DNA of 64,000 nucleotides from Candidatus Krumholzibacteriia bacterium (GTDB lineage: Bacteria > Krumholzibacteriota > Krumholzibacteriia > JAJRXK01): contig DATFKK010000036.1 in NCBI GenBank assembly GCA_035268685.1, positions 5,510 to 69,509 on the forward strand, given 5' to 3'. The notes beneath the pieces were generated by a model. It saw only the letters and a list, made by a program, of their open reading frames with translations, did no database searches and was not told the origin of the DNA. The position numbers were made by a program, and so were the translations under genes. This document shows positions 22,684 through 29,333 of this stretch, one piece after another. Position 1 is the stretch's first letter; every line of letters begins with the position of its first letter.

Positions 22684-23730
22684 TCAACTCGACCCCGGCC
22701 ACGCGTGGGCGGACAGGCCGTAGATCATGGCGCCACCGACGAACCCCGTGGCCAGGACGACGACCGCGAGCACGAACAACGCCACGCGATACGCCCGTGG
22801 ACCGGTTCGTGCGAGCCGCGCACGCTCCCCCATCGCGACGACCACGACGGCCCCGACGGCGAGCGCTGTCCCCGCCCACCGGTGTGCGGTCAGCATCCAC
22901 GCGCCGTCGGTGATCCGGAAGCCGGCGAAGAACCATCCGAGCACGGCCGCCACCACTGCGCTCGCAGCGCCCAGCCAGAGGCAGAAGCGTGCGGCGTGCA
23001 GGCTCGTCTCGTGCCACCGACCGCTCATCGCGAGCAATTCCGCCAGAGCCGCGGCCACGAGCAGGCCGATCGGAAAATGCACGACGGGCGGGTGGAAGGT
23101 CCCCAGCCACGAAATCACCCGGAGCCCGAAGGTGTCGGGGGAACGGACCTCGTCGTGCCGTGGAGGCACGTGCGCGCCCAGGTGGAAGGCCGGCCCTTCC
23201 TCGTCGGCCTGGCCGGCCTCGCCCTCCACCGGAGCGTCCGACGCGACCTCGCCCTCGGCGAGCACACGGATCGTTCCCACCATCCCCGCCCGTTCGTGCG
23301 GAATGCAGAAGTAGGTGTAGTCGCCCGGCACCTCGAAGGTCCGCGTGTAGCTCTCTCCCGGCCCGACGTTGCCCGAGTCGAAGGGCGGCGCGTTGCGCGG
23401 CCGGGACACGTGCGAGGGGTCGGCTGCCTTCGAGGAGTCGGCCGTCACGGTGTGCGGTACCGACCCGGGATTGACCCAACGGACGGTACCGCCGACCGCG
23501 ACCGTGGCGTGCTCCGGCGCGTACTCGAGGGTGTCGGTCATCTCGACGACGACCGTGTCCCGCGGAGCCGCATCACGGGCGGGCGCGGAGACGGGCCAGA
23601 GCACGCATGCGACCGCGGCGGCGGACAGTGCGAACGCCCACACGGTGGGTGTCCTCCACGAACGCCGTGGAGACGGGGACGAACGTGGACACCGAGGGAC
23701 ACCGCACTGCCGCCGCCGGGAATCACTCAT
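22684..23730 (-). CDS. Type-1 copper cupredoxin (plastocyanin/pseudoazurin-like) fused to a His-rich polytopic membrane domain.
   Basis: Start ATG at 23730 overlaps the upstream gene's TGA by 8 nt (ATGAGTGA). Signal-like TVWAFALSAAAVACVLWPVSAPA. Cupredoxin ligands PHTV...YFCIPHERAGM (His, Cys, His, Met). The C-terminal roughly 170 aa form 4-5 TM helices with several conserved His. Confidence 0.7.
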   Translation of the reverse strand: MSDSRRRQCGVPRCPRSSPSPRRSWRTPTVWAFALSAAAVACVLWPVSAPARDAAPRDTVVVEMTDTLEYAPEHATVAVGGTVRWVNPGSVPHTVTADSSKAADPSHVSRPRNAPPFDSGNVGPGESYTRTFEVPGDYTYFCIPHERAGMVGTIRVLAEGEVASDAPVEGEAGQADEEGPAFHLGAHVPPRHDEVRSPDTFGLRVISWLGTFHPPVVHFPIGLLVAAALAELLAMSGRWHETSLHAARFCLWLGAASAVVAAVLGWFFAGFRITDGAWMLTAHRWAGTALAVGAVVVVAMGERARLARTGPRAYRVALFVLAVVVLATGFVGGAMIYGLSAHAWPGSS

Positions 23731-24247
23731 CGTTGGCGAATACGTAGTCGTTCCCGCCGGCATTGGCGTGGCAAGAGCGACACGACGGAACCCGTCCCGC
23801 CACCTCGTTCCCACCCTGCTCGGCGACCTCGCCGGCGGCGGTGTACTTGGCGTACCACCAGTCGCGATGTTCGGTGTCGTAGCCCTCGACTCGCTTCATC
23901 ACCGTGATCGCCGCGAGTTCCTCTTCGGGCGAGTAGTTCTCCTTGACGATGATCGTGCCGTGCGGTGGGTCATCGGGGTTCGCCGCACCCACCCGATTCA
24001 CGTAGGTCTTGAGCAGGGCACCGTGGGGCCGGCTCCCTTCGTAGAAGCCCGCCGGCAGCCCGGGATACGGTGCCCAGTGCTCGTACTCGGCGTCGTCCAG
24101 CCAGCTCCATAACTCGGCCGGCTCCGGGGCCATCGAGCTCGAGCCTCCGTGGCTCTCCGAAGCCGAAGCTCCCGGTTCGACCGCGATGAGCGTTCCGGCC
24201 AGCAGGAGGCCGAGGCCCACGGTGACGGTGATCGACGTGATGCGCAT
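23723..24247 (-). CDS. Periplasmic monoheme c-type cytochrome, probably cytochrome P460 / c'-beta family (C-terminal CXXCH).
   Basis: Trimmed to MRITSITVTVGLGLLLAGTLIA (24247, with GGGAG upstream). A single CRSCH lies 16 aa from the C-terminus in a roughly 170-aa beta-rich secreted protein, the architecture of the P460/c'-beta family. Family assignment is from memory. Confidence 0.5.
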   Translation of the reverse strand: MRITSITVTVGLGLLLAGTLIAVEPGASASESHGGSSSMAPEPAELWSWLDDAEYEHWAPYPGLPAGFYEGSRPHGALLKTYVNRVGAANPDDPPHGTIIVKENYSPEEELAAITVMKRVEGYDTEHRDWWYAKYTAAGEVAEQGGNEVAGRVPSCRSCHANAGGNDYVFANDE

Positions 24248-24624
24248 GTTCGTGACTCCCACGTTCGAAGGGGTCGGGCCGGCGTCGCAAGCGCCGACCG
24301 GATCGGAACGGGAGTCTCGACGTGACGGAGGGTCGTCGACAGCGGGAGTGCGCCCGGGTTCGGGCGCGGGGGCCCGACCCACGACTCCATGGGGACTGCC
24401 CTTCCCCGTCTGGGGGAGGGCCCATGGGAGGAGCAACCCGGATCGGGTGTCCGGGTCCGAACTTCGCGCGAAGCCAGCGGCTCCGGGGACCGTCGTACAG
24501 CTCCGTCTGTCGCCGGAGGCACGGACGCCGCCCCTACCCGCGATCCCGTTGACACCCGCTGGATCGCGGACGCACATTCACGCCGTTCCCGGATCCGAAT
24601 CGACGTCCCGCTCCGGCGGCCACC

Positions 24625-27057
24625 ATGCACCGAGCCATCGCCTCCACCCTCGCCCTCGTGCTGTTCGCGGCCGGCTGCGCCGACGAAGCGCTCATCGGCG
24701 AACGCGTGCCGAACTCCGCGCCCGACACGCAGGTCGAGGCCACGCCACCCAACCTCGGCGCATCGACCTTCCGCATCACCCTGTTCTGGTCGGGCAGCGA
24801 CCTCGACGGCACCGTCGACGGCTACGAGTGGATCATCACCGACAACGGATCCGACGGGATCCTCTCACCCAGCGACACCACCGGGACCTGGAACTACACC
24901 GAGTCCACCGACTCGACCTTCGTCGTGTCAGCCGACATCCCGGACTTCGGACCGGACGTCGAGAATCCCGGTATCGACGACGTCGAGGACGTCCGCTACT
25001 GGCAGACGCACACCTTCCTCGTTCGCGCCGTCGACGACCGCGGTCGCCGGGACCCCAGCCCTGCGCACGTCAGCTTCACGGCCACCACGCTGGCCCCGAA
25101 GATCGAGATCGATCGGCCCACCGTCCCCGCGACACCGTCGTGCGTCGAGGGCCCGCTGGCCCTGTCGTTCGGCTGGACGGCCGAGGATCCGGACGACACC
25201 CGCGGCGGAGTGGCCGAGGTGCGTTACCTGCTGATCGAGATCGGCGGACCCGACGACCGCTGCCTCACCGACACACAGTTCCGCGACTCGAATCCAGTGG
25301 CCTCGGCGCCCGAGACCGCCTGGAGCGAGTGGATTCCCTACGAAGCCGGCCAGGACAGCGGACGGGTCAAACGCTATCGCATCCTCGAACAACCCGTGGG
25401 CACTTCGTACATCTTCGCGGTGCAGGCCCGGGACGTGGCCGGAGCCGTCACCCCCACCTTCGACTGGGGCGTGAACGTCCGCCACGTGAAGACGACACGG
25501 AACAAGTTTCCCCTGCTCACGGTCACCGAGAGCAACCTGGGAACCACGGTGGGCGCCGGAACTTCGACACTGCTGCGCTTCGACATCGTGGCCGGCCAGC
25601 CCCTCGACTTCTCCTGGCGAGCCGAAGCCGAGAGCTACGGCGGCGTGATCGAAGCCTTCCGCTACGGGTTCGGGGTCGTCGACCCGAACGACGAGGAAGA
25701 CCCGAACTGGTCCGTTCCCTGGGGACCGAGCTGGCGCACCGCGCGGCGGCCGACCGGATTCTCGCAGGGATCTCCGAACTTCGTCCTGCAGGTACGCGAC
25801 AACTCCGGATCGGTCTCGCGGATCAGCTATCAGTTCCAGGTGATCCAGATCAAGGCCCGCAAGGACCAGAGACCGCTCCTGGTGGTGGACGACGACACCG
25901 GAGGCGGCGAGATCCCGACCCCGATCCGCCGCATCGACCAGCAGTGGGACGAGGAGTGGCGCCGTACGCTCTTGCGCGTCCAGGGATTCGCCTCGGCCAG
26001 CGACATGATCGACACCGCCACCGACGCGAACCGTCTGACCTTCTCGCTGCTCAACGACTACCGCGCGGTGATCTGGTTGGTCCGAACGGGACAGTCATCG
26101 TTCATGACGACCCGATTCGCACCGCCGAACCCACGCGGTGCCCGCTTCAACTGGTTGCAGGTCTACCAGAAGTTCGTGGGGAACGTCATGCTGGCCGGGC
26201 CGGCGGCAGCAATGCAATCGGTGCAGACGAACACCTCGGACTTCACCGACTTCCCCATGCCGCTCGTGCTGAACACCTCCGACGGGGGCAACAACGGACT
26301 GGGCACGATCGTCGATGCAGAGGGCCGCACGGTGAACGTGGGAACACTCCGCTATGCGTACACCTCGTGGTGCCTCGACACGATCGACTGGGTGCGCCCG
26401 TTCAGGGTGTACGGCGAACGCGACGGCGCGCCGCGCCGTCGCCGGATCGGGTGTGAGAGCTACACGTACGCGCGCGTCTCCCCGGACTTCGTCTCCGAGT
26501 TCCGTCCGACGGTCCAGGAGGTGACCCACCTTCGCCCGACCGAGATCCGTCTGCGCGCCGGCGACACGACGGTCGACCCGCAGCTCCTCGACCGTCAGAA
26601 CCTCGCCGCGCTCGGCGCCGAGGAGTTCTACAACGTGAACGCGGCCAACCGGCCGGTCCTGGTGAGTCCCCGCGAGTGCCAGACGCCGATGTTCCTGGCC
26701 GTGGCCCGGATGGACGTCGACAATGCCGAGGTGATGGAGCCGGAGGACCTTCCCGAGCGCTATCGAGTCGGTGTGCAGGAACGACTGGTGAACCTGACCG
26801 AGTCGCCCCCGGGATCGGGACAGCTGGTCGACGACTGCCCCGCGGTGACGCTCGCGCGCCGGTCGACTTCGACGATCACCCATGCTCCCGTGGCCATCGC
26901 CAGCACCCAGTACCTCCGCGAACGCACCAAGCAGGGCGGCACGCTGCTCACCGAGGACTACATCTGGGGCTTCAATCCCCTCACCTTCGAGCGTGCGGAG
27001 TTCGACGCGGTCATGGATTGGATCCTGCTCACGCGATGGGGACTGAACGACGAGTAG
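24625..27057 (+). CDS. Large (810-aa) lipoprotein of unknown function.
   Basis: Signal with lipobox LFAAGCADE, several beta-sandwich-like segments, no catalytic motif recognised. Confidence 0.65.
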   Translation: MHRAIASTLALVLFAAGCADEALIGERVPNSAPDTQVEATPPNLGASTFRITLFWSGSDLDGTVDGYEWIITDNGSDGILSPSDTTGTWNYTESTDSTFVVSADIPDFGPDVENPGIDDVEDVRYWQTHTFLVRAVDDRGRRDPSPAHVSFTATTLAPKIEIDRPTVPATPSCVEGPLALSFGWTAEDPDDTRGGVAEVRYLLIEIGGPDDRCLTDTQFRDSNPVASAPETAWSEWIPYEAGQDSGRVKRYRILEQPVGTSYIFAVQARDVAGAVTPTFDWGVNVRHVKTTRNKFPLLTVTESNLGTTVGAGTSTLLRFDIVAGQPLDFSWRAEAESYGGVIEAFRYGFGVVDPNDEEDPNWSVPWGPSWRTARRPTGFSQGSPNFVLQVRDNSGSVSRISYQFQVIQIKARKDQRPLLVVDDDTGGGEIPTPIRRIDQQWDEEWRRTLLRVQGFASASDMIDTATDANRLTFSLLNDYRAVIWLVRTGQSSFMTTRFAPPNPRGARFNWLQVYQKFVGNVMLAGPAAAMQSVQTNTSDFTDFPMPLVLNTSDGGNNGLGTIVDAEGRTVNVGTLRYAYTSWCLDTIDWVRPFRVYGERDGAPRRRRIGCESYTYARVSPDFVSEFRPTVQEVTHLRPTEIRLRAGDTTVDPQLLDRQNLAALGAEEFYNVNAANRPVLVSPRECQTPMFLAVARMDVDNAEVMEPEDLPERYRVGVQERLVNLTESPPGSGQLVDDCPAVTLARRSTSTITHAPVAIASTQYLRERTKQGGTLLTEDYIWGFNPLTFERAEFDAVMDWILLTRWGLNDE

Positions 27058-27062
27058 CCGTC

Positions 27063-29333
27063 CTAGCGCTCGAAACCGATCCGCAGCGTGTCCTGTTTCA
27101 GCCGTTTGGCCATCTGCTCGTACTGGGCCTCGGTCTCGGCCGTGACCGAGGGCACGGTCTCCTCGATCGCGGCGAGGAATTCCTCGTGGCCGACACGCTC
27201 GGCCCGTGGATCGGTACGAAGTGCCAGCATGCCGGCACGGGTGCACACGCCTGCGATGTCGGCCCCACTGAATCGTGCCGTACGGGTGGTCAGATCATCC
27301 AGGTCGACGTCGTCGCCGACGTGCATGCCACGCAGCTGCGCCTCGAAGATCTTGCGCCGTTGCTCGGCGTCGGGCATCGGAACGTAGACCATCTCGTCGA
27401 GTCGGCCGGGGCGCAGCAGAGCCGGATCGACCCGGTCGGGGCGGTTGGTCGCGCCGAGGATGCACACGCCCTGAAGTTCCTCGACACCGTCGAGCTCGCT
27501 GAGAATCTGGTTGACCACGCGCTCGGTCACCGCGGGCTCCCCCAAGGACCCGCCACGCACCGGCGCCAGCGAGTCGAGCTCGTCGAAGAAGATCACGGCT
27601 GGCGCCACGTGCCGCGCACGCTGGAAGAGCTCTGCGATCTTCTTCTCGGACTCGCCGTACCACTTCGACAGCAGCGAACTGCCGCGTGCGGCGAGGAAAT
27701 TCGCCCCCGCCTGGTTGGCGACGGCCTTCGCCACCAGCGTCTTGCCCGTGCCCGGCGGCCCGTACAACAGGATCCCCTTCGGCGCGCGAATCCCCAACCG
27801 CAGGAACGCACCCGGATCCTGCAGCGGCAGCTCGACCATCTCGCTCAGCGCCCGCTTGACGTTCTCGAGCCCGCCGACGTCCTCCCAGGTGACACGCGGG
27901 ATCTCCACCATGACCTCGCGCAGCGCCGAGGGCTGGATCTCCTTGAAGGCCTCGTCGACATCGGCGTTGGTCACCTCGAGCTGCTCGAGCTTCTCGCTCG
28001 GAATGGTGTTCTGCTCGAGATCGAGTTCGGGAAGCATCCGGCGCAGCGTCTCCACGGCGGACTCGCGGGCCAATGCGCTGAGATCCGACCCCGTGTAACC
28101 GTGGGTGCGGGCTGCGATCCCCTCGAGGTCGACGTCCTCGTGCAGAGGCATGCCGCGCGTGTGGATCTGCAGGATCTGGAATCGGCCGTCCTGGTCGGGA
28201 ATCCCGGCCACGATCTCACGATCGAAGCGACCCGGGCGACGCAGGGCCTCGTCGACCGCGTCGATGCGGTTCGTGGCCCCGATCACCACGACGTTGCGTC
28301 GAGCCTTCAGTCCGTCCATCAGCGTGAGCAGCTGGGCGACGATCCGGCGCTCGGTCTCCCCGCTCACGTCACCCCGTTTCGGGGCGATCGAGTCCAGTTC
28401 GTCGATGAAGATGATCGCCGGGGCGTTCTTCTCGGCCTCTTCGAAGACCTGCCGCAGTCGTTCCTCCGACTCGCCGTAATGCTTGCCCATGATCTCGGGC
28501 CCGTTGACGACGGCGAAGTAGGAATCGGTCTCGTGGGCGACGGCCCGGGCCAGCAGGGTCTTGCCGGTTCCGGGTGGGCCGTGCAGCAGAACGCCCAGCG
28601 GAGGTTCGATACCGAGACGGTCGAAGAGCTCGGGGTGCCGCAACGGAAGTTCGATCATCTCGCGGACCTTGGCCACGGCGTGGTCCAGTCCGCCGATGTC
28701 GTCGTAGGTGATGACGTGGCCCTCGTCCTCGCGCACCTCGGTGTACTCGGGCGCGAGTTCGATCTCGGTCTCCGGGGTGACGCGCACCACGCCGCGGGGC
28801 TTGGTCGAAACCACGGTCAGCCGGATCTCCATGAGACCGAAGGCCGGCGATTCGAAGAAGTCGCGGAAGAAGTCGTCCCGGTAGCCGTCGGTGCCCACGC
28901 TCTGCCGTGGTCGCCGGAACACGCTCGTCGACACCAGGTCGCCCGACAGCACGGGACGGTGTAACAGAGTGGGGCGTAGGGCCTCGCCCGTGCCGGCCAC
29001 ACGCAGCCCCTTCTGGGCGGGCGCCACGACCACACGGGCAGCCGGACTCCACTCGGCCTCACGGATCTCGACATGCTCACCGATGCCGACACCGACGTTG
29101 TGCCGAGTGAGACCGTCCAGTCGCACGATCTCGAGTCCCACGTCCTCCTGCTCGACCGGAACGACGGTGGCGGCCGTGAGATGCTTGCCCTCGACCTCGA
29201 CCACGTCCCCGCGCTCGAGGCCGAGTGCCCGCATGCTCTCGGGTCCCAATCGGACGATTCCCTTGCCGACGTCGTTCTGGCGCATCTCCGCGACCTTCAG
29301 ACGGATCGCGTTCTGCGTCTGCTGGGGGGACAT
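27063..29333 (-). CDS. CDC48/VCP-like AAA+ ATPase (N-domain + two AAA domains).
   Basis: Two Walker A motifs (GPPGTGKT twice), two Walker B motifs (IIFIDELD, VIFFDELD), second-region-of-homology Arg residues, and a CDC48-N-like double-psi barrel N-terminus. Confidence 0.9.
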   Translation of the reverse strand: MSPQQTQNAIRLKVAEMRQNDVGKGIVRLGPESMRALGLERGDVVEVEGKHLTAATVVPVEQEDVGLEIVRLDGLTRHNVGVGIGEHVEIREAEWSPAARVVVAPAQKGLRVAGTGEALRPTLLHRPVLSGDLVSTSVFRRPRQSVGTDGYRDDFFRDFFESPAFGLMEIRLTVVSTKPRGVVRVTPETEIELAPEYTEVREDEGHVITYDDIGGLDHAVAKVREMIELPLRHPELFDRLGIEPPLGVLLHGPPGTGKTLLARAVAHETDSYFAVVNGPEIMGKHYGESEERLRQVFEEAEKNAPAIIFIDELDSIAPKRGDVSGETERRIVAQLLTLMDGLKARRNVVVIGATNRIDAVDEALRRPGRFDREIVAGIPDQDGRFQILQIHTRGMPLHEDVDLEGIAARTHGYTGSDLSALARESAVETLRRMLPELDLEQNTIPSEKLEQLEVTNADVDEAFKEIQPSALREVMVEIPRVTWEDVGGLENVKRALSEMVELPLQDPGAFLRLGIRAPKGILLYGPPGTGKTLVAKAVANQAGANFLAARGSSLLSKWYGESEKKIAELFQRARHVAPAVIFFDELDSLAPVRGGSLGEPAVTERVVNQILSELDGVEELQGVCILGATNRPDRVDPALLRPGRLDEMVYVPMPDAEQRRKIFEAQLRGMHVGDDVDLDDLTTRTARFSGADIAGVCTRAGMLALRTDPRAERVGHEEFLAAIEETVPSVTAETEAQYEQMAKRLKQDTLRIGFER

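What the first reader, a model, noticed from the sequence alone, without database searches (positions are those of the whole stretch)
22684..24247. Translationally coupled pair: cytochrome P460/c'-beta-like protein and a cupredoxin fused to a His-rich membrane domain
A roughly 170-aa secreted monoheme cytochrome with its only CXXCH 16 aa from the C-terminus (the P460/c'-beta architecture) overlaps by 8 nt (ATGAGTGA) with a gene for a complete type-1 copper site (H, C-x-x-H-x-x-x-x-M) fused to a roughly 170-aa polytopic domain carrying multiple conserved histidines. P460 and c'-beta proteins handle hydroxylamine/NO. A membrane-anchored blue-copper partner suggests a dedicated electron-transfer route, for example NO or NH2OH detoxification coupled to the membrane. 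The fusion architecture itself appears uncommon.
Basis: partly seen in the sequence, partly recalled or inferred. Interest (0 to 1): 0.6.

Follow-up and report, generated by a model that had tools for sequence, protein, structure and literature searches.

The report
P460-type cytochrome with membrane-tethered blue-copper partner
A two-gene unit in an uncultured Krumholzibacteria genome pairs an uncharacterised variant of the hydroxylamine/NO-handling cytochrome P460 family with a blue-copper electron carrier anchored by a membrane domain of unknown function, and the same partnership recurs in other phyla, which points to a natural redox partner for this cytochrome family.

Summary
Both genes exist on the minus strand at the stated coordinates. 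Gene A (23723-24247, 174 aa) belongs to the P460/c'-beta superfamily by Pfam, PDB profile search and predicted fold. It sits in a large uncharacterised clade, found in at least 429 species genomes. That clade has Lys at the haem cross-link position, His at the distal cap (Phe or Arg in every characterised member) and Thr where active P460s have the proton-relay carboxylate. Gene B has a complete type-1 copper site (H93, C142, H145, M150) fused to a four-helix DUF2231 domain. The domain's invariant His pair faces the periplasm.

The ATGAGTGA overlap is present, but NCBI's start for gene B is a GTG 87 nt downstream behind a GGAGGA. Translational coupling is therefore unproven.

The pairing is real. 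The closest P460 relatives form one clade, and every member with readable flanks sits next to a cupredoxin/DUF2231 gene. Elsewhere the same cupredoxin type is fused directly to the P460 domain (Fibrobacterota) or to a cytochrome c placed next to a P460 gene.

Function is inferred, not shown. DUF2231 has no literature. Its nearest relatives lie in copper-resistance islands or carry cytochrome c domains. I rate this a new variant of a known kind, of moderate interest.

The parts
23723..24247 (-). Gene A: 174-aa secreted mono-haem c protein of the P460/c'-beta superfamily
   Evidence: ORF and translation. Pfam PF16694 at 35.6 bits against a cut-off of 27. Profile hits to c'-beta and P460 PDB chains, best E 6e-9. 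The AF2 model (pLDDT 82) matches only P460/c'-beta structures in Foldseek.
24256..24260 (-). GGGAG Shine-Dalgarno sequence 8 nt upstream of the gene A ATG
   Evidence: Read from the sequence. The start agrees with the 99% identical database protein P0001, also 174 aa.
24161..24247 (-). Signal peptide of gene A (MRITSITVTVGLGLLLAGTLIAVEPGASA)
   Evidence: Read from the sequence. The region has low pLDDT and an N-terminal helix in the model.
24023..24025 (-). His75, at the distal capping position above the haem iron
   Evidence: Aligns to Phe29 of TtCP-beta, Phe32 of McCP-beta and Phe41 of NeP460. These are the capping residues in Table 2 of PMC11928373. His in 117 of 118 family members.
23942..23944 (-). 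Lys102 in the VKENY motif, at the position of the haem-Lys cross-link
   Evidence: Aligns to Lys70 of N. europaea P460 (TVTVKE), and to Phe61 of McCP-beta and Met79 of NeCP-beta. Invariant in the 31-sequence alignment A1.
23903..23905 (-). Thr115, at the position of the proton-relay carboxylate of active P460s
   Evidence: Aligns to Ala109 of NeCP-beta and Gly82 of McCP-beta. These equal Glu96 and Asp102 in NeP460 and McP460. Thr in 116 of 118 family members.
23768..23782 (-). CRSCH, the only haem c attachment motif (C156-H160)
   Evidence: Invariant in the family.
23723..23730 (-). ATGAGTGA: the gene A stop (TGA) overlapping a possible ATG start of gene B
   Evidence: There is no Shine-Dalgarno sequence upstream of this ATG.
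22684..23730 (-). Gene B, long form (348 aa): cupredoxin, His-containing linker and DUF2231
23641..23643 (-). Alternative GTG start of gene B (319-aa form, as annotated by NCBI)
   Evidence: P0033 is 100% identical and 319 aa long. The GTG lies 80 nt after the gene A stop in the window, L001 and L088.
23652..23657 (-). GGAGGA Shine-Dalgarno-like hexamer 8 nt upstream of the GTG (also codons W-R-T of the long form)
   Evidence: Conserved in L001 and L088.
23644..23722 (-). Conserved 79-nt stretch between the gene A stop and the GTG. It is either an untranslated leader or the n-region of a Tat-like signal (SPRRSWRTP).
   Evidence: Nucleotide alignment with L001 and L088. 7 of about 14 substitutions are synonymous third-position changes, which is inconclusive.
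23263..23547 (-). Plastocyanin-like type-1 copper domain (residues 62-156). Ligand codons: H93 23452-23454, C142 23305-23307, H145 23296-23298, M150 23281-23283.
   Evidence: Pfam PF00127 at 56.4 bits. Alignment to plastocyanins with ligands in register. Codon positions checked.
23101..23262 (-). Acidic linker ending in a His-containing segment (FHLGAHVPPRH) and an amphipathic helix
   Evidence: Read from the sequence. The motif is shared with P0034. His-rich segments also precede DUF2231 in the copper-island relatives.
22711..23100 (-). DUF2231 four-helix membrane domain (residues 211-340). Invariant H213 (23092-23094) and H283 (22882-22884). Conserved E231, C250, G265-W266, R284-W285, G329, G332 and G333.
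   Evidence: Pfam PF09990 at 28.7 bits against 26.4 for the whole gene B protein, and 32.7 bits on the domain alone. The AF2 model has four long helices. Invariant columns. The Arg-rich loops between helices 1-2 and 3-4 place the N-terminus and the His pair on the periplasmic side (read from the sequence).

Best explanation
The locus is a self-contained two-gene unit. It has a divergent gene upstream and a convergent gene downstream, and neither neighbour is redox-related. I read it as a periplasmic redox module held at the membrane.

Gene A is exported. It carries one c-type haem in a P460/c'-beta fold, ligated by the His of CRSCH, with an open distal side. I take this haem to be the ligand-binding or catalytic centre. 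The distal pocket is a combination not seen in any characterised member: Lys102 at the cross-link position, so probably a true haem-Lys P460 cofactor; His75 as the cap directly above the iron; and Thr115 in place of the proton-relay carboxylate.

Gene B places a plastocyanin-like blue-copper domain on the periplasmic face, tethered by a flexible linker to a four-helix DUF2231 bundle. I infer that the copper domain is the dedicated one-electron partner of the haem. Because characterised P460 haems have very low Fe(III)/Fe(II) potentials, a high-potential cupredoxin fits best as an acceptor. It would take electrons from substrate-bound intermediates during oxidation of a small nitrogen compound, with NH2OH or NO the leading candidates and His75 acting as the base.

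DUF2231 then either passes the electrons on to the membrane through a cofactor held by its periplasm-side His pair (haem b or copper), or only anchors the carrier.

Shown: family membership, fold, the diagnostic residues, the copper ligands, membrane topology, and the conserved linkage of the two proteins.

Inferred: the cross-link itself, the substrate, the direction of electron flow, and any cofactor in DUF2231.
For: **Family and fold of gene A**
- Pfam, PDB profile search and Foldseek all give P460/c'-beta and nothing else.

**Diagnostic residues**
- K102, H75 and T115 were mapped through three independent profile alignments onto the positions tabulated in PMC11928373.
- H75 and T115 are near-invariant in 118 family members.

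**Gene B**
- The type-1 copper ligands are complete and conserved.
- The positive-inside rule, and the occurrence of both domain orders (cupredoxin-DUF2231 and DUF2231-cupredoxin), both require N- and C-termini on the outside.

**Linkage of the two proteins**
- A P460 gene lies next to a cupredoxin/DUF2231 gene in the window and in L001, L003, L081, L082/L083, L088 and L173. It lies divergent in L086 and downstream as two copies in L089.
- In a neighbour-joining tree the window, L001, L003, P0004 (the L081 partner), L086, L089 and L173 fall in one clade, and all readable members are paired.
- The same cupredoxin subtype (HTVTAD...FDSG...YFCIPHExAGM) is fused to the P460 domain in one ORF in two Fibrobacterota MAGs (L023, L042).
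- It is also fused to a class-I cytochrome c that directly follows a P460 gene in L038.

**DUF2231 as a partner of periplasmic redox or metal domains**
- Of 75 nearest representatives without a cupredoxin, 22 carry cytochrome c domains and 14 carry YHS domains.
- The invariant residues (two His, Arg, Trp and several Gly) cluster at the periplasmic end of the bundle.
Against: - No experiment exists on any member of this clade or on DUF2231. Literature searches found nothing relevant.
- Thr at the carboxylate position predicts no NH2OH oxidase activity under the rule established for NsP460 versus NeP460.
- Most members of the wider VKENY family have no cupredoxin nearby. Only 6 of the best 80 genome loci do. 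Their neighbours are TrxR-like oxidoreductases, TetR, AhpD-like, ECF sigma and Crp genes.
- None of the 80 metagenomic DUF2231 loci has a P460 gene. These include about 7 cupredoxin fusions with more than 1 kb of flank.
- The nearest DUF2231 relatives lie in copper-resistance islands, which suggests copper handling rather than quinone-linked electron transfer.
- The window contains no nitrogen-cycle genes near the pair.
Confidence: 0.5

Rival explanations
1. Copper-homeostasis module. DUF2231 binds or moves periplasmic copper through its His cluster and the His-containing linker. The fused cupredoxin acts like a CopI or CopC-type periplasmic copper protein, or as a Cu(I)/Cu(II) redox site. The P460-like haem protein is an accessory electron sink or source for Cu(I) oxidation.
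For: - The closest DUF2231 domains (40-56% identity) lie next to YHS proteins (25 loci), outer-membrane efflux proteins (19), RND pumps (12), multicopper oxidases (12) and YHS/HMBD P1B-ATPases (10).
- L090 and L091 are CusCBA-like operons with CsoR or an ECF sigma factor.
- L086 carries MbnB/HvfC genes nearby.
- His-rich segments precede the domain.
- There is a weak NCBIfam hit to CopI.
Against: - The window and the paired loci themselves contain no copper-efflux genes.
- 22 of 75 relatives carry cytochrome c domains instead of copper-binding domains.
- The cupredoxin has a canonical, fully conserved electron-transfer type-1 site.
- The CopI model scores 19 bits against a cut-off of 280.
- This reading gives no reason for the specific, repeated coupling to a P460-fold haem protein, including direct fusions that lack DUF2231.
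Confidence: 0.2
2. Pure electron-transfer chain with no catalysis. The invariant His75 ligates the haem iron as a sixth ligand, so gene A encodes a low-spin bis-His cytochrome in a P460 fold. It only shuttles electrons to or from the tethered cupredoxin and an unidentified terminal enzyme.
For: - His75 occupies the capping position that lies directly over the iron in all solved structures, and it is near-invariant.
- In L038 the partner is a cytochrome c-cupredoxin fusion, which looks like a carrier chain.
Against: - Every characterised member of the fold is five-coordinate and binds ligands (PMC11928373).
- The strictly conserved Lys at the cross-link position, and the KENY motif around it, would be unnecessary for a simple carrier.
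- No candidate terminal enzyme is conserved next to the pair.
Confidence: 0.15
3. Periplasmic peroxide or oxidant detoxification. The haem, with a distal His acting as an acid-base catalyst, works as a peroxidase. The cupredoxin donates electrons to it, as pseudoazurin or azurin does to bacterial cytochrome c peroxidase.
For: - A distal His is the classical peroxidase catalyst (established knowledge).
- NeCP-beta of this fold has peroxidase-like activity.
- AhpC/Redoxin, AhpD-like (CMD), VKOR and TrxR-like genes recur near family members.
Against: In NeP460 the Lys, or the cross-link it forms, suppresses peroxidase-like activity, and that activity appears only in the K70A mutant. This clade keeps the Lys invariantly.
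Confidence: 0.1
4. Chance adjacency of two unrelated genes.
For: The pair is absent from most loci of either family.
Against: - Adjacency recurs in at least 9 distinct loci.
- The partnership also recurs with changed gene order, changed domain order, and as two kinds of fusion.
- The genome-derived cases span several lineages: Krumholzibacteria (window), Thermoanaerobaculia (L003), Fibrobacterota (L023, L042) and a proteobacterium (L038).
Confidence: 0.02

Closest known systems
Cytochrome P460 of Nitrosomonas europaea and Methylococcus capsulatus (PDB 2JE2/2JE3, 6HIU)
   Same: Same beta-sheet fold. Single C-terminal CXXCH. Lys in a V-K-E motif at the cross-link position. Periplasmic location.
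   Different: - Sequence identity is only 17-21% in the structural alignments.
- The cap is His, not Phe or Arg.
- Thr replaces the Glu96/Asp102 proton relay.
- The host is a non-nitrifying, non-proteobacterial lineage.
- It has a dedicated cupredoxin partner gene. The 2025 review of the superfamily (PMC11928373) does not mention a redox partner or electron acceptor for characterised P460s.
Nitrosomonas sp. AL212 cytochrome P460 (6AMG), the 'half-way house' P460
   Same: Lys at the cross-link position but no distal carboxylate (Ala131, against Thr115 here).
   Different: NsP460 has a hydrophobic Phe76 cap and is inactive on NH2OH. Here the cap is an ionisable His that could replace the missing base.
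Cytochromes c'-beta (McCP-beta 6HIH, TtCP-beta 7EAD, NeCP-beta 7S5O)
   Same: These are the best sequence and fold matches (E 6e-9; Foldseek E 2e-5). They lack the carboxylate, as this protein does.
   Different: They have Phe or Met where this protein has Lys, and Phe or Arg where it has His. They are NO/CO binders, or in one case a peroxidase mimic.
Plastocyanin, amicyanin and pseudoazurin-type cupredoxins
   Same: Same fold and the same His-Cys-His-Met type-1 site. E about 1e-12 to plastocyanins.
   Different: - It scores below the plastocyanin equivalog cut-off (68.6 against 87.85 bits).
- It is membrane-tethered by a polytopic domain.
- It belongs to a subtype that is also fused to P460 domains or cytochrome c, or repeated 5-12 times in giant proteins.
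CopC-CopD (YcnJ-type) fusions. This is an analogy recalled from general knowledge, not tested here.
   Same: A periplasmic beta-sandwich copper domain joined to a His-bearing inner-membrane domain. Relatives lie in copper-resistance loci.
   Different: CopC is not a type-1 electron-transfer site. CopD is a different and larger membrane family. No sequence relationship was detected.
Four-helix haem-binding membrane bundles (haem A synthase CtaA/COX15, cytochrome b561, CcmF/CcsBA)
   Same: - A four-helix transmembrane bundle with a conserved His pair on two helices at one membrane face.
- Weak Pfam COX15-CtaA hits over the DUF2231 region in 7 of 75 and 6 of 24 members.
   Different: - The hits are below Pfam thresholds.
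- No HMM hit to any solved structure.
- No evidence of a bound haem.

Membership tests
Cytochrome P460 / c'-beta superfamily (Pfam PF16694) | Sequence match above the curated Pfam threshold | tested here: met
   35.6 bits against a cut-off of 27, E 1.4e-8. All 32 database homologues carry PF16694.
Cytochrome P460 / c'-beta superfamily (Pfam PF16694) | Beta-sheet fold shared by P460 and c'-beta | tested here: met
   The AF2 model (pLDDT 82) has as its nine best Foldseek PDB hits only P460 and c'-beta structures, with probability 1.00.
Cytochrome P460 / c'-beta superfamily (Pfam PF16694) | Single CXXCH near the C-terminus providing the proximal His | tested here: met
   CRSCH at residues 156-160 of 174 aligns with the CXXCH of the PDB members.
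Cytochrome P460 sensu stricto | Lys at the haem cross-link position | tested here: met
   K102 aligns with Lys70 of NeP460, and with Phe61 and Met79 of the c'-beta proteins.
Cytochrome P460 sensu stricto | Covalent Lys-porphyrin bond and a Soret band at about 440-460 nm | not testable with these tools
   This needs purified protein, UV-visible spectroscopy and mass spectrometry.
Cytochrome P460 sensu stricto (NH2OH-oxidising) | Distal carboxylate proton relay (Glu96 in NeP460, Asp102 in McP460) | tested here: not met
   T115 occupies the position aligned to Ala109 (NeCP-beta) and Gly82 (McCP-beta). It is Thr in 116 of 118 family members.
Cytochrome c'-beta | Hydrophobic residue (Phe, Met, Leu, Val or Ile) replacing the cross-link Lys | tested here: not met
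   Lys is invariant at this position in the 31-sequence alignment A1. In the 80 genome loci it was imposed by the search pattern.
Cytochrome P460 / c'-beta (all characterised members) | Phe or Arg as the distal capping residue | tested here: not met
   H75 sits at the cap position, and is His in 117 of 118 members.
Type-1 (blue) copper protein, plastocyanin/azurin family (PF00127) | Pfam match and the His, Cys, His, Met ligand set | tested here: met
   56.4 bits against a cut-off of 21.2. H93, C142, H145 and M150 align with the plastocyanin ligands.
Plastocyanin proper (TIGR02656 equivalog) | Score above the NCBIfam equivalog cut-off | tested here: not met
   68.6 bits against a cut-off of 87.85.
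CopI copper-resistance cuproprotein (NF051440) | Score above the NCBIfam cut-off | tested here: not met
   19.1 bits against a cut-off of 280.
DUF2231 (PF09990) | Pfam match above the gathering score, with a four-helix membrane domain | tested here: met
   28.7 bits against 26.4 on the whole protein, and 32.7 bits on the domain alone. The AF2 model shows four long helices.
Haem-b-binding four-helix membrane cytochromes (CtaA/COX15, b561-like) | Detectable homology and a bis-His haem site | tested here: inconclusive

The most novel reading that the evidence does not exclude
DUF2231 is an unrecognised membrane redox module. It would be a four-helix bundle holding a haem b or a copper ion between its invariant periplasm-side His pair, and it would wire periplasmic one-electron carriers (cupredoxin, cytochrome c, YHS-bound copper) to the membrane or quinone pool. 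Together with the His-capped, Lys-type P460 clade it would form a previously undescribed membrane-linked oxidoreductase for hydroxylamine, NO or a related small molecule. That enzyme would be widespread outside nitrifiers, and its blue-copper domain would identify the long-missing type of physiological redox partner of P460 cytochromes.
Probability: 0.25. Interest if true: 0.75.

Novelty: new variant of a known kind. Interest (0 to 1): 0.55.

Why it matters
Cytochromes P460 matter because they turn hydroxylamine into N2O or NO. Only a few proteobacterial examples have been studied, and their natural electron acceptor is not established. This locus shows three things:
- A very large, taxonomically broad clade of the family has a new distal-pocket chemistry: Lys, a His cap and no carboxylate.
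- Part of that clade is genetically welded to one particular cupredoxin type, by adjacency, by direct fusion, or through a cytochrome c-cupredoxin fusion. This gives a directly testable redox partner.
- The unstudied DUF2231 membrane domain is consistently attached to periplasmic redox or copper-binding domains, and is common in copper-resistance islands. This offers a first functional handle on that family.

Each point can be tested with recombinant proteins.

Tried and rejected
- A single-sequence phmmer search of gene A against the PDB found nothing relevant. Only the profile of 31 homologues reached the P460 and c'-beta structures.
- HMM searches of DUF2231 profiles against the PDB gave only cupredoxin hits (A2) or nothing (A4).
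- The AlphaFold-database fold libraries were not available.
- A third word-index homologue search, using the DUF2231 domain alone, returned only 13 proteins and added little.
- Literature searches for DUF2231, PF09990, P460 plus cupredoxin, and YHS plus Cus found nothing on this system.
- The promoter and terminator scan found no sites.
- Codon-position analysis of the 80-nt stretch before the GTG start could not separate coding from non-coding conservation.
- I considered c552 or c6-type cytochromes and rejected them, because there was no such Pfam or PDB hit. I considered CopI and rejected it at 19 against 280 bits. I considered plastocyanin proper and rejected it because it scores below the equivalog cut-off.
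Full report
**1. What is in the sequence**

Both genes lie on the minus strand.

Gene A runs from the ATG at 24247 to the TGA at 23723 and encodes 174 aa.
- A GGGAG lies 8 nt upstream of the ATG.
- The protein has a Sec-type signal peptide (MRITSITVTVGLGLLLAGTLIAVEPGASA).
- It has one haem-attachment motif, CRSCH, at residues 156-160.
- A 99% identical 174-aa protein (P0001) lies on a 322-kb metagenomic contig.

Gene B ends at 22684.
- Read from the ATG at 23730 it is 348 aa, and its start overlaps the stop of gene A as ATGAGTGA.
- The identical NCBI protein is annotated as a plastocyanin/azurin family protein of a Candidatus Krumholzibacteria MAG. It is 319 aa long and starts at the GTG at 23643.
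- That GTG is preceded by GGAGGA with an 8-nt spacer. The ATG has no ribosome-binding site.
- In two close relatives (L001, L088) the same GTG and GGAGGA sit exactly 80 nt after the stop of gene A. The stretch in between is almost identical, stays in frame, and encodes SPRRSWRTP immediately before the hydrophobic core.
- The short form has no charged n-region, so a long form with a twin-arginine-like signal cannot be dismissed.
- Seven of about 14 substitutions in this stretch are synonymous third-position changes, which does not decide the matter.
- In more distant pairs the intergenic gap is 11-120 nt.

The genes are clearly one co-directional unit, but translational coupling by overlap is neither established nor conserved.

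The flanking genes are a convergent family-2 glycosyltransferase and a divergent 810-aa ORF with no Pfam match. Further out are a peptidase, sulfatases, an outer-membrane beta-barrel protein, a CDC48-type ATPase and an FKBP. None is redox- or nitrogen-related. No promoter or terminator consensus was found.

**2. Gene A is a P460/c'-beta superfamily protein with an undescribed haem pocket**

Family and fold:
- Pfam gives Cytochrome_P460 at 35.6 bits against a cut-off of 27. NCBIfam has no model for it.
- A single-sequence search of the PDB found nothing.
- A profile of 31 homologues (A1) hit only c'-beta and P460 chains: 7EAD at 6e-9, 2JE2 at 7e-8, then 7S5O, 6HIH, 6HIU and 6AMG.
- The AlphaFold2 model (pLDDT 82, core above 90) matches only those structures in Foldseek, all with probability 1.00.

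The 2025 review of the superfamily (PMC11928373) tabulates three diagnostic positions. The profile alignments place this protein's residues on them as follows:

| Position | Characterised members | This protein |
|---|---|---|
| Cross-linking Lys | Lys70 NeP460, Lys78 McP460; Phe61 or Met79 in c'-beta | K102, aligned to Lys70 of NeP460, Phe61 of McCP-beta and Met79 of NeCP-beta |
| Distal proton-relay carboxylate | Glu96 or Asp102 in active P460s; Ala or Gly in inactive proteins | T115, aligned to Ala109 of NeCP-beta and Gly82 of McCP-beta |
| Capping residue above the iron | "Either Phe or Arg" in all structures | H75, aligned to Phe29 of TtCP-beta, Phe32 of McCP-beta and the single loop Phe of NeP460 |

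The chain-index offsets reproduce the published numbering for each c'-beta chain. The NeP460 loop Phe comes out one position off (index 41, published Phe41, with an offset of -1 for Lys70 and Arg44), but it is the only Phe in that loop.

The protein is therefore Lys-type, like a P460. It lacks the carboxylate, like the inactive NsP460. It has a His cap that no characterised member has.

Distribution:
- Across 118 family members H75 is His in 117 and T115 is Thr in 116.
- K102 is invariant in the unbiased alignment A1. In the genome loci it was imposed by the search pattern.
- The family is large and broad. 429 of the species-representative genomes encode a relative with the VKENY motif. These include Planctomycetota, Gemmatimonadota, Thermaceae, Desulfuromonadales and other 'Deltaproteobacteria', Deferribacteres, Rhodothermales, Fibrobacterota, Methylomirabilia and others.
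- The review describes the analysed P460 and c'-beta sequences as coming from proteobacteria.

**3. Gene B is a type-1 cupredoxin tethered by a DUF2231 membrane domain**

The cupredoxin:
- Pfam gives Copper-bind at 56.4 bits for residues 62-156.
- The copper domain aligns with plastocyanins at about 1e-12, with His93, Cys142, His145 and Met150 in register with the four ligands.
- It falls below the plastocyanin equivalog cut-off and far below CopI.

The linker is acidic and ends in FHLGAHVPPRH followed by a short amphipathic helix.

The membrane domain:
- Pfam gives DUF2231 at 28.7 bits for residues 211-340.
- The AlphaFold2 model (pLDDT 87) shows four long helices.
- The Arg-rich loops between helices 1-2 and 3-4 put those loops in the cytoplasm. 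The N-terminus, with the cupredoxin, is then in the periplasm.
- Both domain orders occur in nature: 10 cupredoxin-DUF2231 and 8 DUF2231-cupredoxin clusters among the best 150 representatives. This requires both ends of the bundle to be outside.
- Invariant residues are H213, P220, E231, W266, H283, G287 and several Gly in helix 4. C250, G265, R284 and W285 are conserved at 90% or more.
- The second His of HPxxVHFP (H218) and the C-terminal His (H342) are not invariant.
- Except for E231 and C250, the conserved positions lie at the periplasmic end of the bundle.

**4. Is the pair conserved?**

Viewed from the cytochrome, among the best 80 genome loci:
- Only L001 and L003 have a cupredoxin-DUF2231 gene directly downstream.
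- L023 and L042 (two Fibrobacterota MAGs) encode the P460 domain and the same cupredoxin subtype in one ORF. The sequences retain H, K, T and all copper ligands.
- L038 has a cytochrome c-cupredoxin fusion immediately after the P460 gene.
- L053 has a cupredoxin nearby.

Viewed from gene B:

| Protein or locus | Identity to gene B | P460 gene |
|---|---|---|
| P0034 (L088) | 67% | directly upstream |
| P0035 (L081) | 47% | directly upstream |
| P0036 (L082/L083) | 45% | directly upstream |
| P0075 (L173) | 50% | directly upstream |
| P0037 (L086, reversed domain order) | 47% | divergent |
| P0039 (L089, reversed domain order) | about 50% | two copies downstream |
| P0038 | 40% | none |
| P0041 | 44% | none |

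A neighbour-joining tree of 119 family members places the window, L001, L003, P0004 (the L081 partner), L086, one L089 copy, L173 and their nearest database relatives in one clade. Every member with readable flanks is paired. The fusions, L038, L082 and the second L089 copy lie elsewhere in the tree.

The association is therefore inherited within one clade, and it has also been assembled in other arrangements in other branches. That is the classical signature of a functional, probably physical, partnership between the P460-fold haem protein and this cupredoxin subtype.

The association is not universal:
- Most family members have other neighbours: TrxR-like FAD oxidoreductase in 17 of 80 loci, plus histidine kinases, TetR, AhpD-like CMD, ECF sigma with anti-sigma, DUF3179 and Crp-type regulators.
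- None of the 80 metagenomic DUF2231 loci has a P460 gene.

**5. What DUF2231 relatives do elsewhere**

The 80 metagenomic loci carry the closest DUF2231 domains, at 40-56% identity. They are dominated by copper-homeostasis genes:
- YHS-domain proteins immediately upstream, in 25 loci
- outer-membrane efflux proteins, in 19
- RND pumps, in 12
- multicopper oxidases, in 12
- YHS/HMBD P1B-type ATPases, in 10

L090 and L091 are CusCBA-like operons with an ECF sigma factor or a CsoR-type repressor.

Among 75 representatives without a cupredoxin, 22 carry class-I cytochrome c domains and 14 carry YHS domains. Planctomycete cytochrome (PSCyt1) fusions also occur.

DUF2231 is thus always joined to a periplasmic redox or copper-binding domain. 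The cytochrome c and cupredoxin fusions argue for an electron-transfer role. The copper-island context and the His-rich leaders argue for copper handling. The two readings meet in the idea of a membrane site that exchanges electrons with periplasmic carriers or with bound copper, but this remains inference.

**6. Most likely mechanism and rivals**

My best reading has confidence about 0.5. Gene A protein is a ligand-binding or catalytic P460-type haem. The gene B cupredoxin is its dedicated one-electron partner. DUF2231 anchors that partner and possibly relays electrons to or from the membrane.

Characterised P460 haems have Fe(III)/Fe(II) potentials of about -300 to -400 mV. A blue-copper protein is therefore much more plausible as an acceptor during substrate oxidation, for example the Fe-NH2OH to {FeNO}7 to {FeNO}6 steps, than as a reductant of the resting haem. 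His75 could replace the missing carboxylate as the base. This last point draws on my general knowledge of Asp/His pairs in hydroxylamine oxidoreductase and was not tested here.

Rivals:
- A copper-homeostasis role (0.2).
- A purely electron-carrying, His75-ligated low-spin cytochrome (0.15).
- A cupredoxin-dependent peroxidase (0.1). This is weakened because Lys70 or its cross-link suppresses peroxidase activity in NeP460.
- Chance adjacency (0.02), effectively excluded by the fusions.

**7. Novelty and verdict**

Each part belongs to a catalogued family, so nothing here is categorically new. Three things appear undescribed in the searchable literature:
- the Lys / His-cap / Thr pocket in a very widespread non-proteobacterial clade
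- the repeated genetic coupling of that clade to one cupredoxin subtype
- the context evidence for DUF2231

The family assignment, the Lys and the conserved partnership hold. The NH2OH/NO function remains a hypothesis that the missing carboxylate makes less straightforward.

I rate this a new variant of a known kind, with interest 0.55.

Noticed in passing
L090-L171 (for example L091:2311-7006, L115:195-3933, L149:7294-8625, L108:761-3148): The DUF2231 domains closest to that of gene B sit in copper-resistance islands. They are usually preceded by a YHS-domain gene or fused to a YHS domain, and lie next to CusCBA-like pumps, multicopper oxidases, YHS/HMBD P1B-ATPases and CsoR or ECF regulators. 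No publication on DUF2231 was found.
   Followed up: partly
Proteins P0073 (1452 aa), P0074 (3670 aa), P0077 (2938 aa) and 50 others: The cupredoxin subtype of gene B also occurs as 5-12 tandem copies in giant proteins. These make up 53 of the best 150 representatives. Their function and context were not examined.
   Followed up: no
window 23644-23722 (-), L001:727-806, L088:119-198: The stretch between the stop of gene A and the annotated GTG start of gene B is nearly identical in three genomes and stays in frame. It encodes a twin-arginine-like SPRRSWRTP, and the GGAGGA 'Shine-Dalgarno' sequence doubles as the W-R-T codons. It is either a conserved leader or an unannotated Tat signal.
   Followed up: partly
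L023:2749-3669 and L042:5782-6804: In two Fibrobacterota MAGs a single ORF fuses the P460-like domain to the cupredoxin. The ORF retains H, K, T, CXXCH and all four copper ligands, and has no DUF2231.
   Followed up: yes
L038:5905-7379: A P460-like gene is followed directly by a class-I cytochrome c-cupredoxin fusion (300 aa) in 'Proteobacteria bacterium 005FR1'. A similar fusion, P0050 (L172), follows a second small cupredoxin gene.
   Followed up: partly
L089:221-3797: This locus has DUF3179 genes, then DUF2231-cupredoxin, then two tandem P460-like paralogues. DUF3179 also lies next to six other family members, and a TrxR-like FAD oxidoreductase is the commonest neighbour of the family (17 of 80 loci).
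   Followed up: no
L086:4831-6659: MbnB/TglH-like and HvfC-like genes, which suggest a peptide-modification cluster for a metal-binding peptide, lie about 2 kb from a DUF2231-cupredoxin / P460 pair.
   Followed up: no
window 24625-27057 (+): An 810-aa ORF lies divergent from gene A. It has a lipoprotein-like signal (…LVLFAAGC) and no Pfam match.
   Followed up: no
window 27063-29333 (-): A CDC48/VCP-type double AAA+ ATPase with CDC48_N and CDC48_2 domains. This architecture is better known from archaea and eukaryotes.
   Followed up: no
Protein P0025 (291 aa): A tandem duplication of the P460-like domain with degenerate motifs (VKENL, and CVAAACH in place of CXXCH in the first copy).
   Followed up: no
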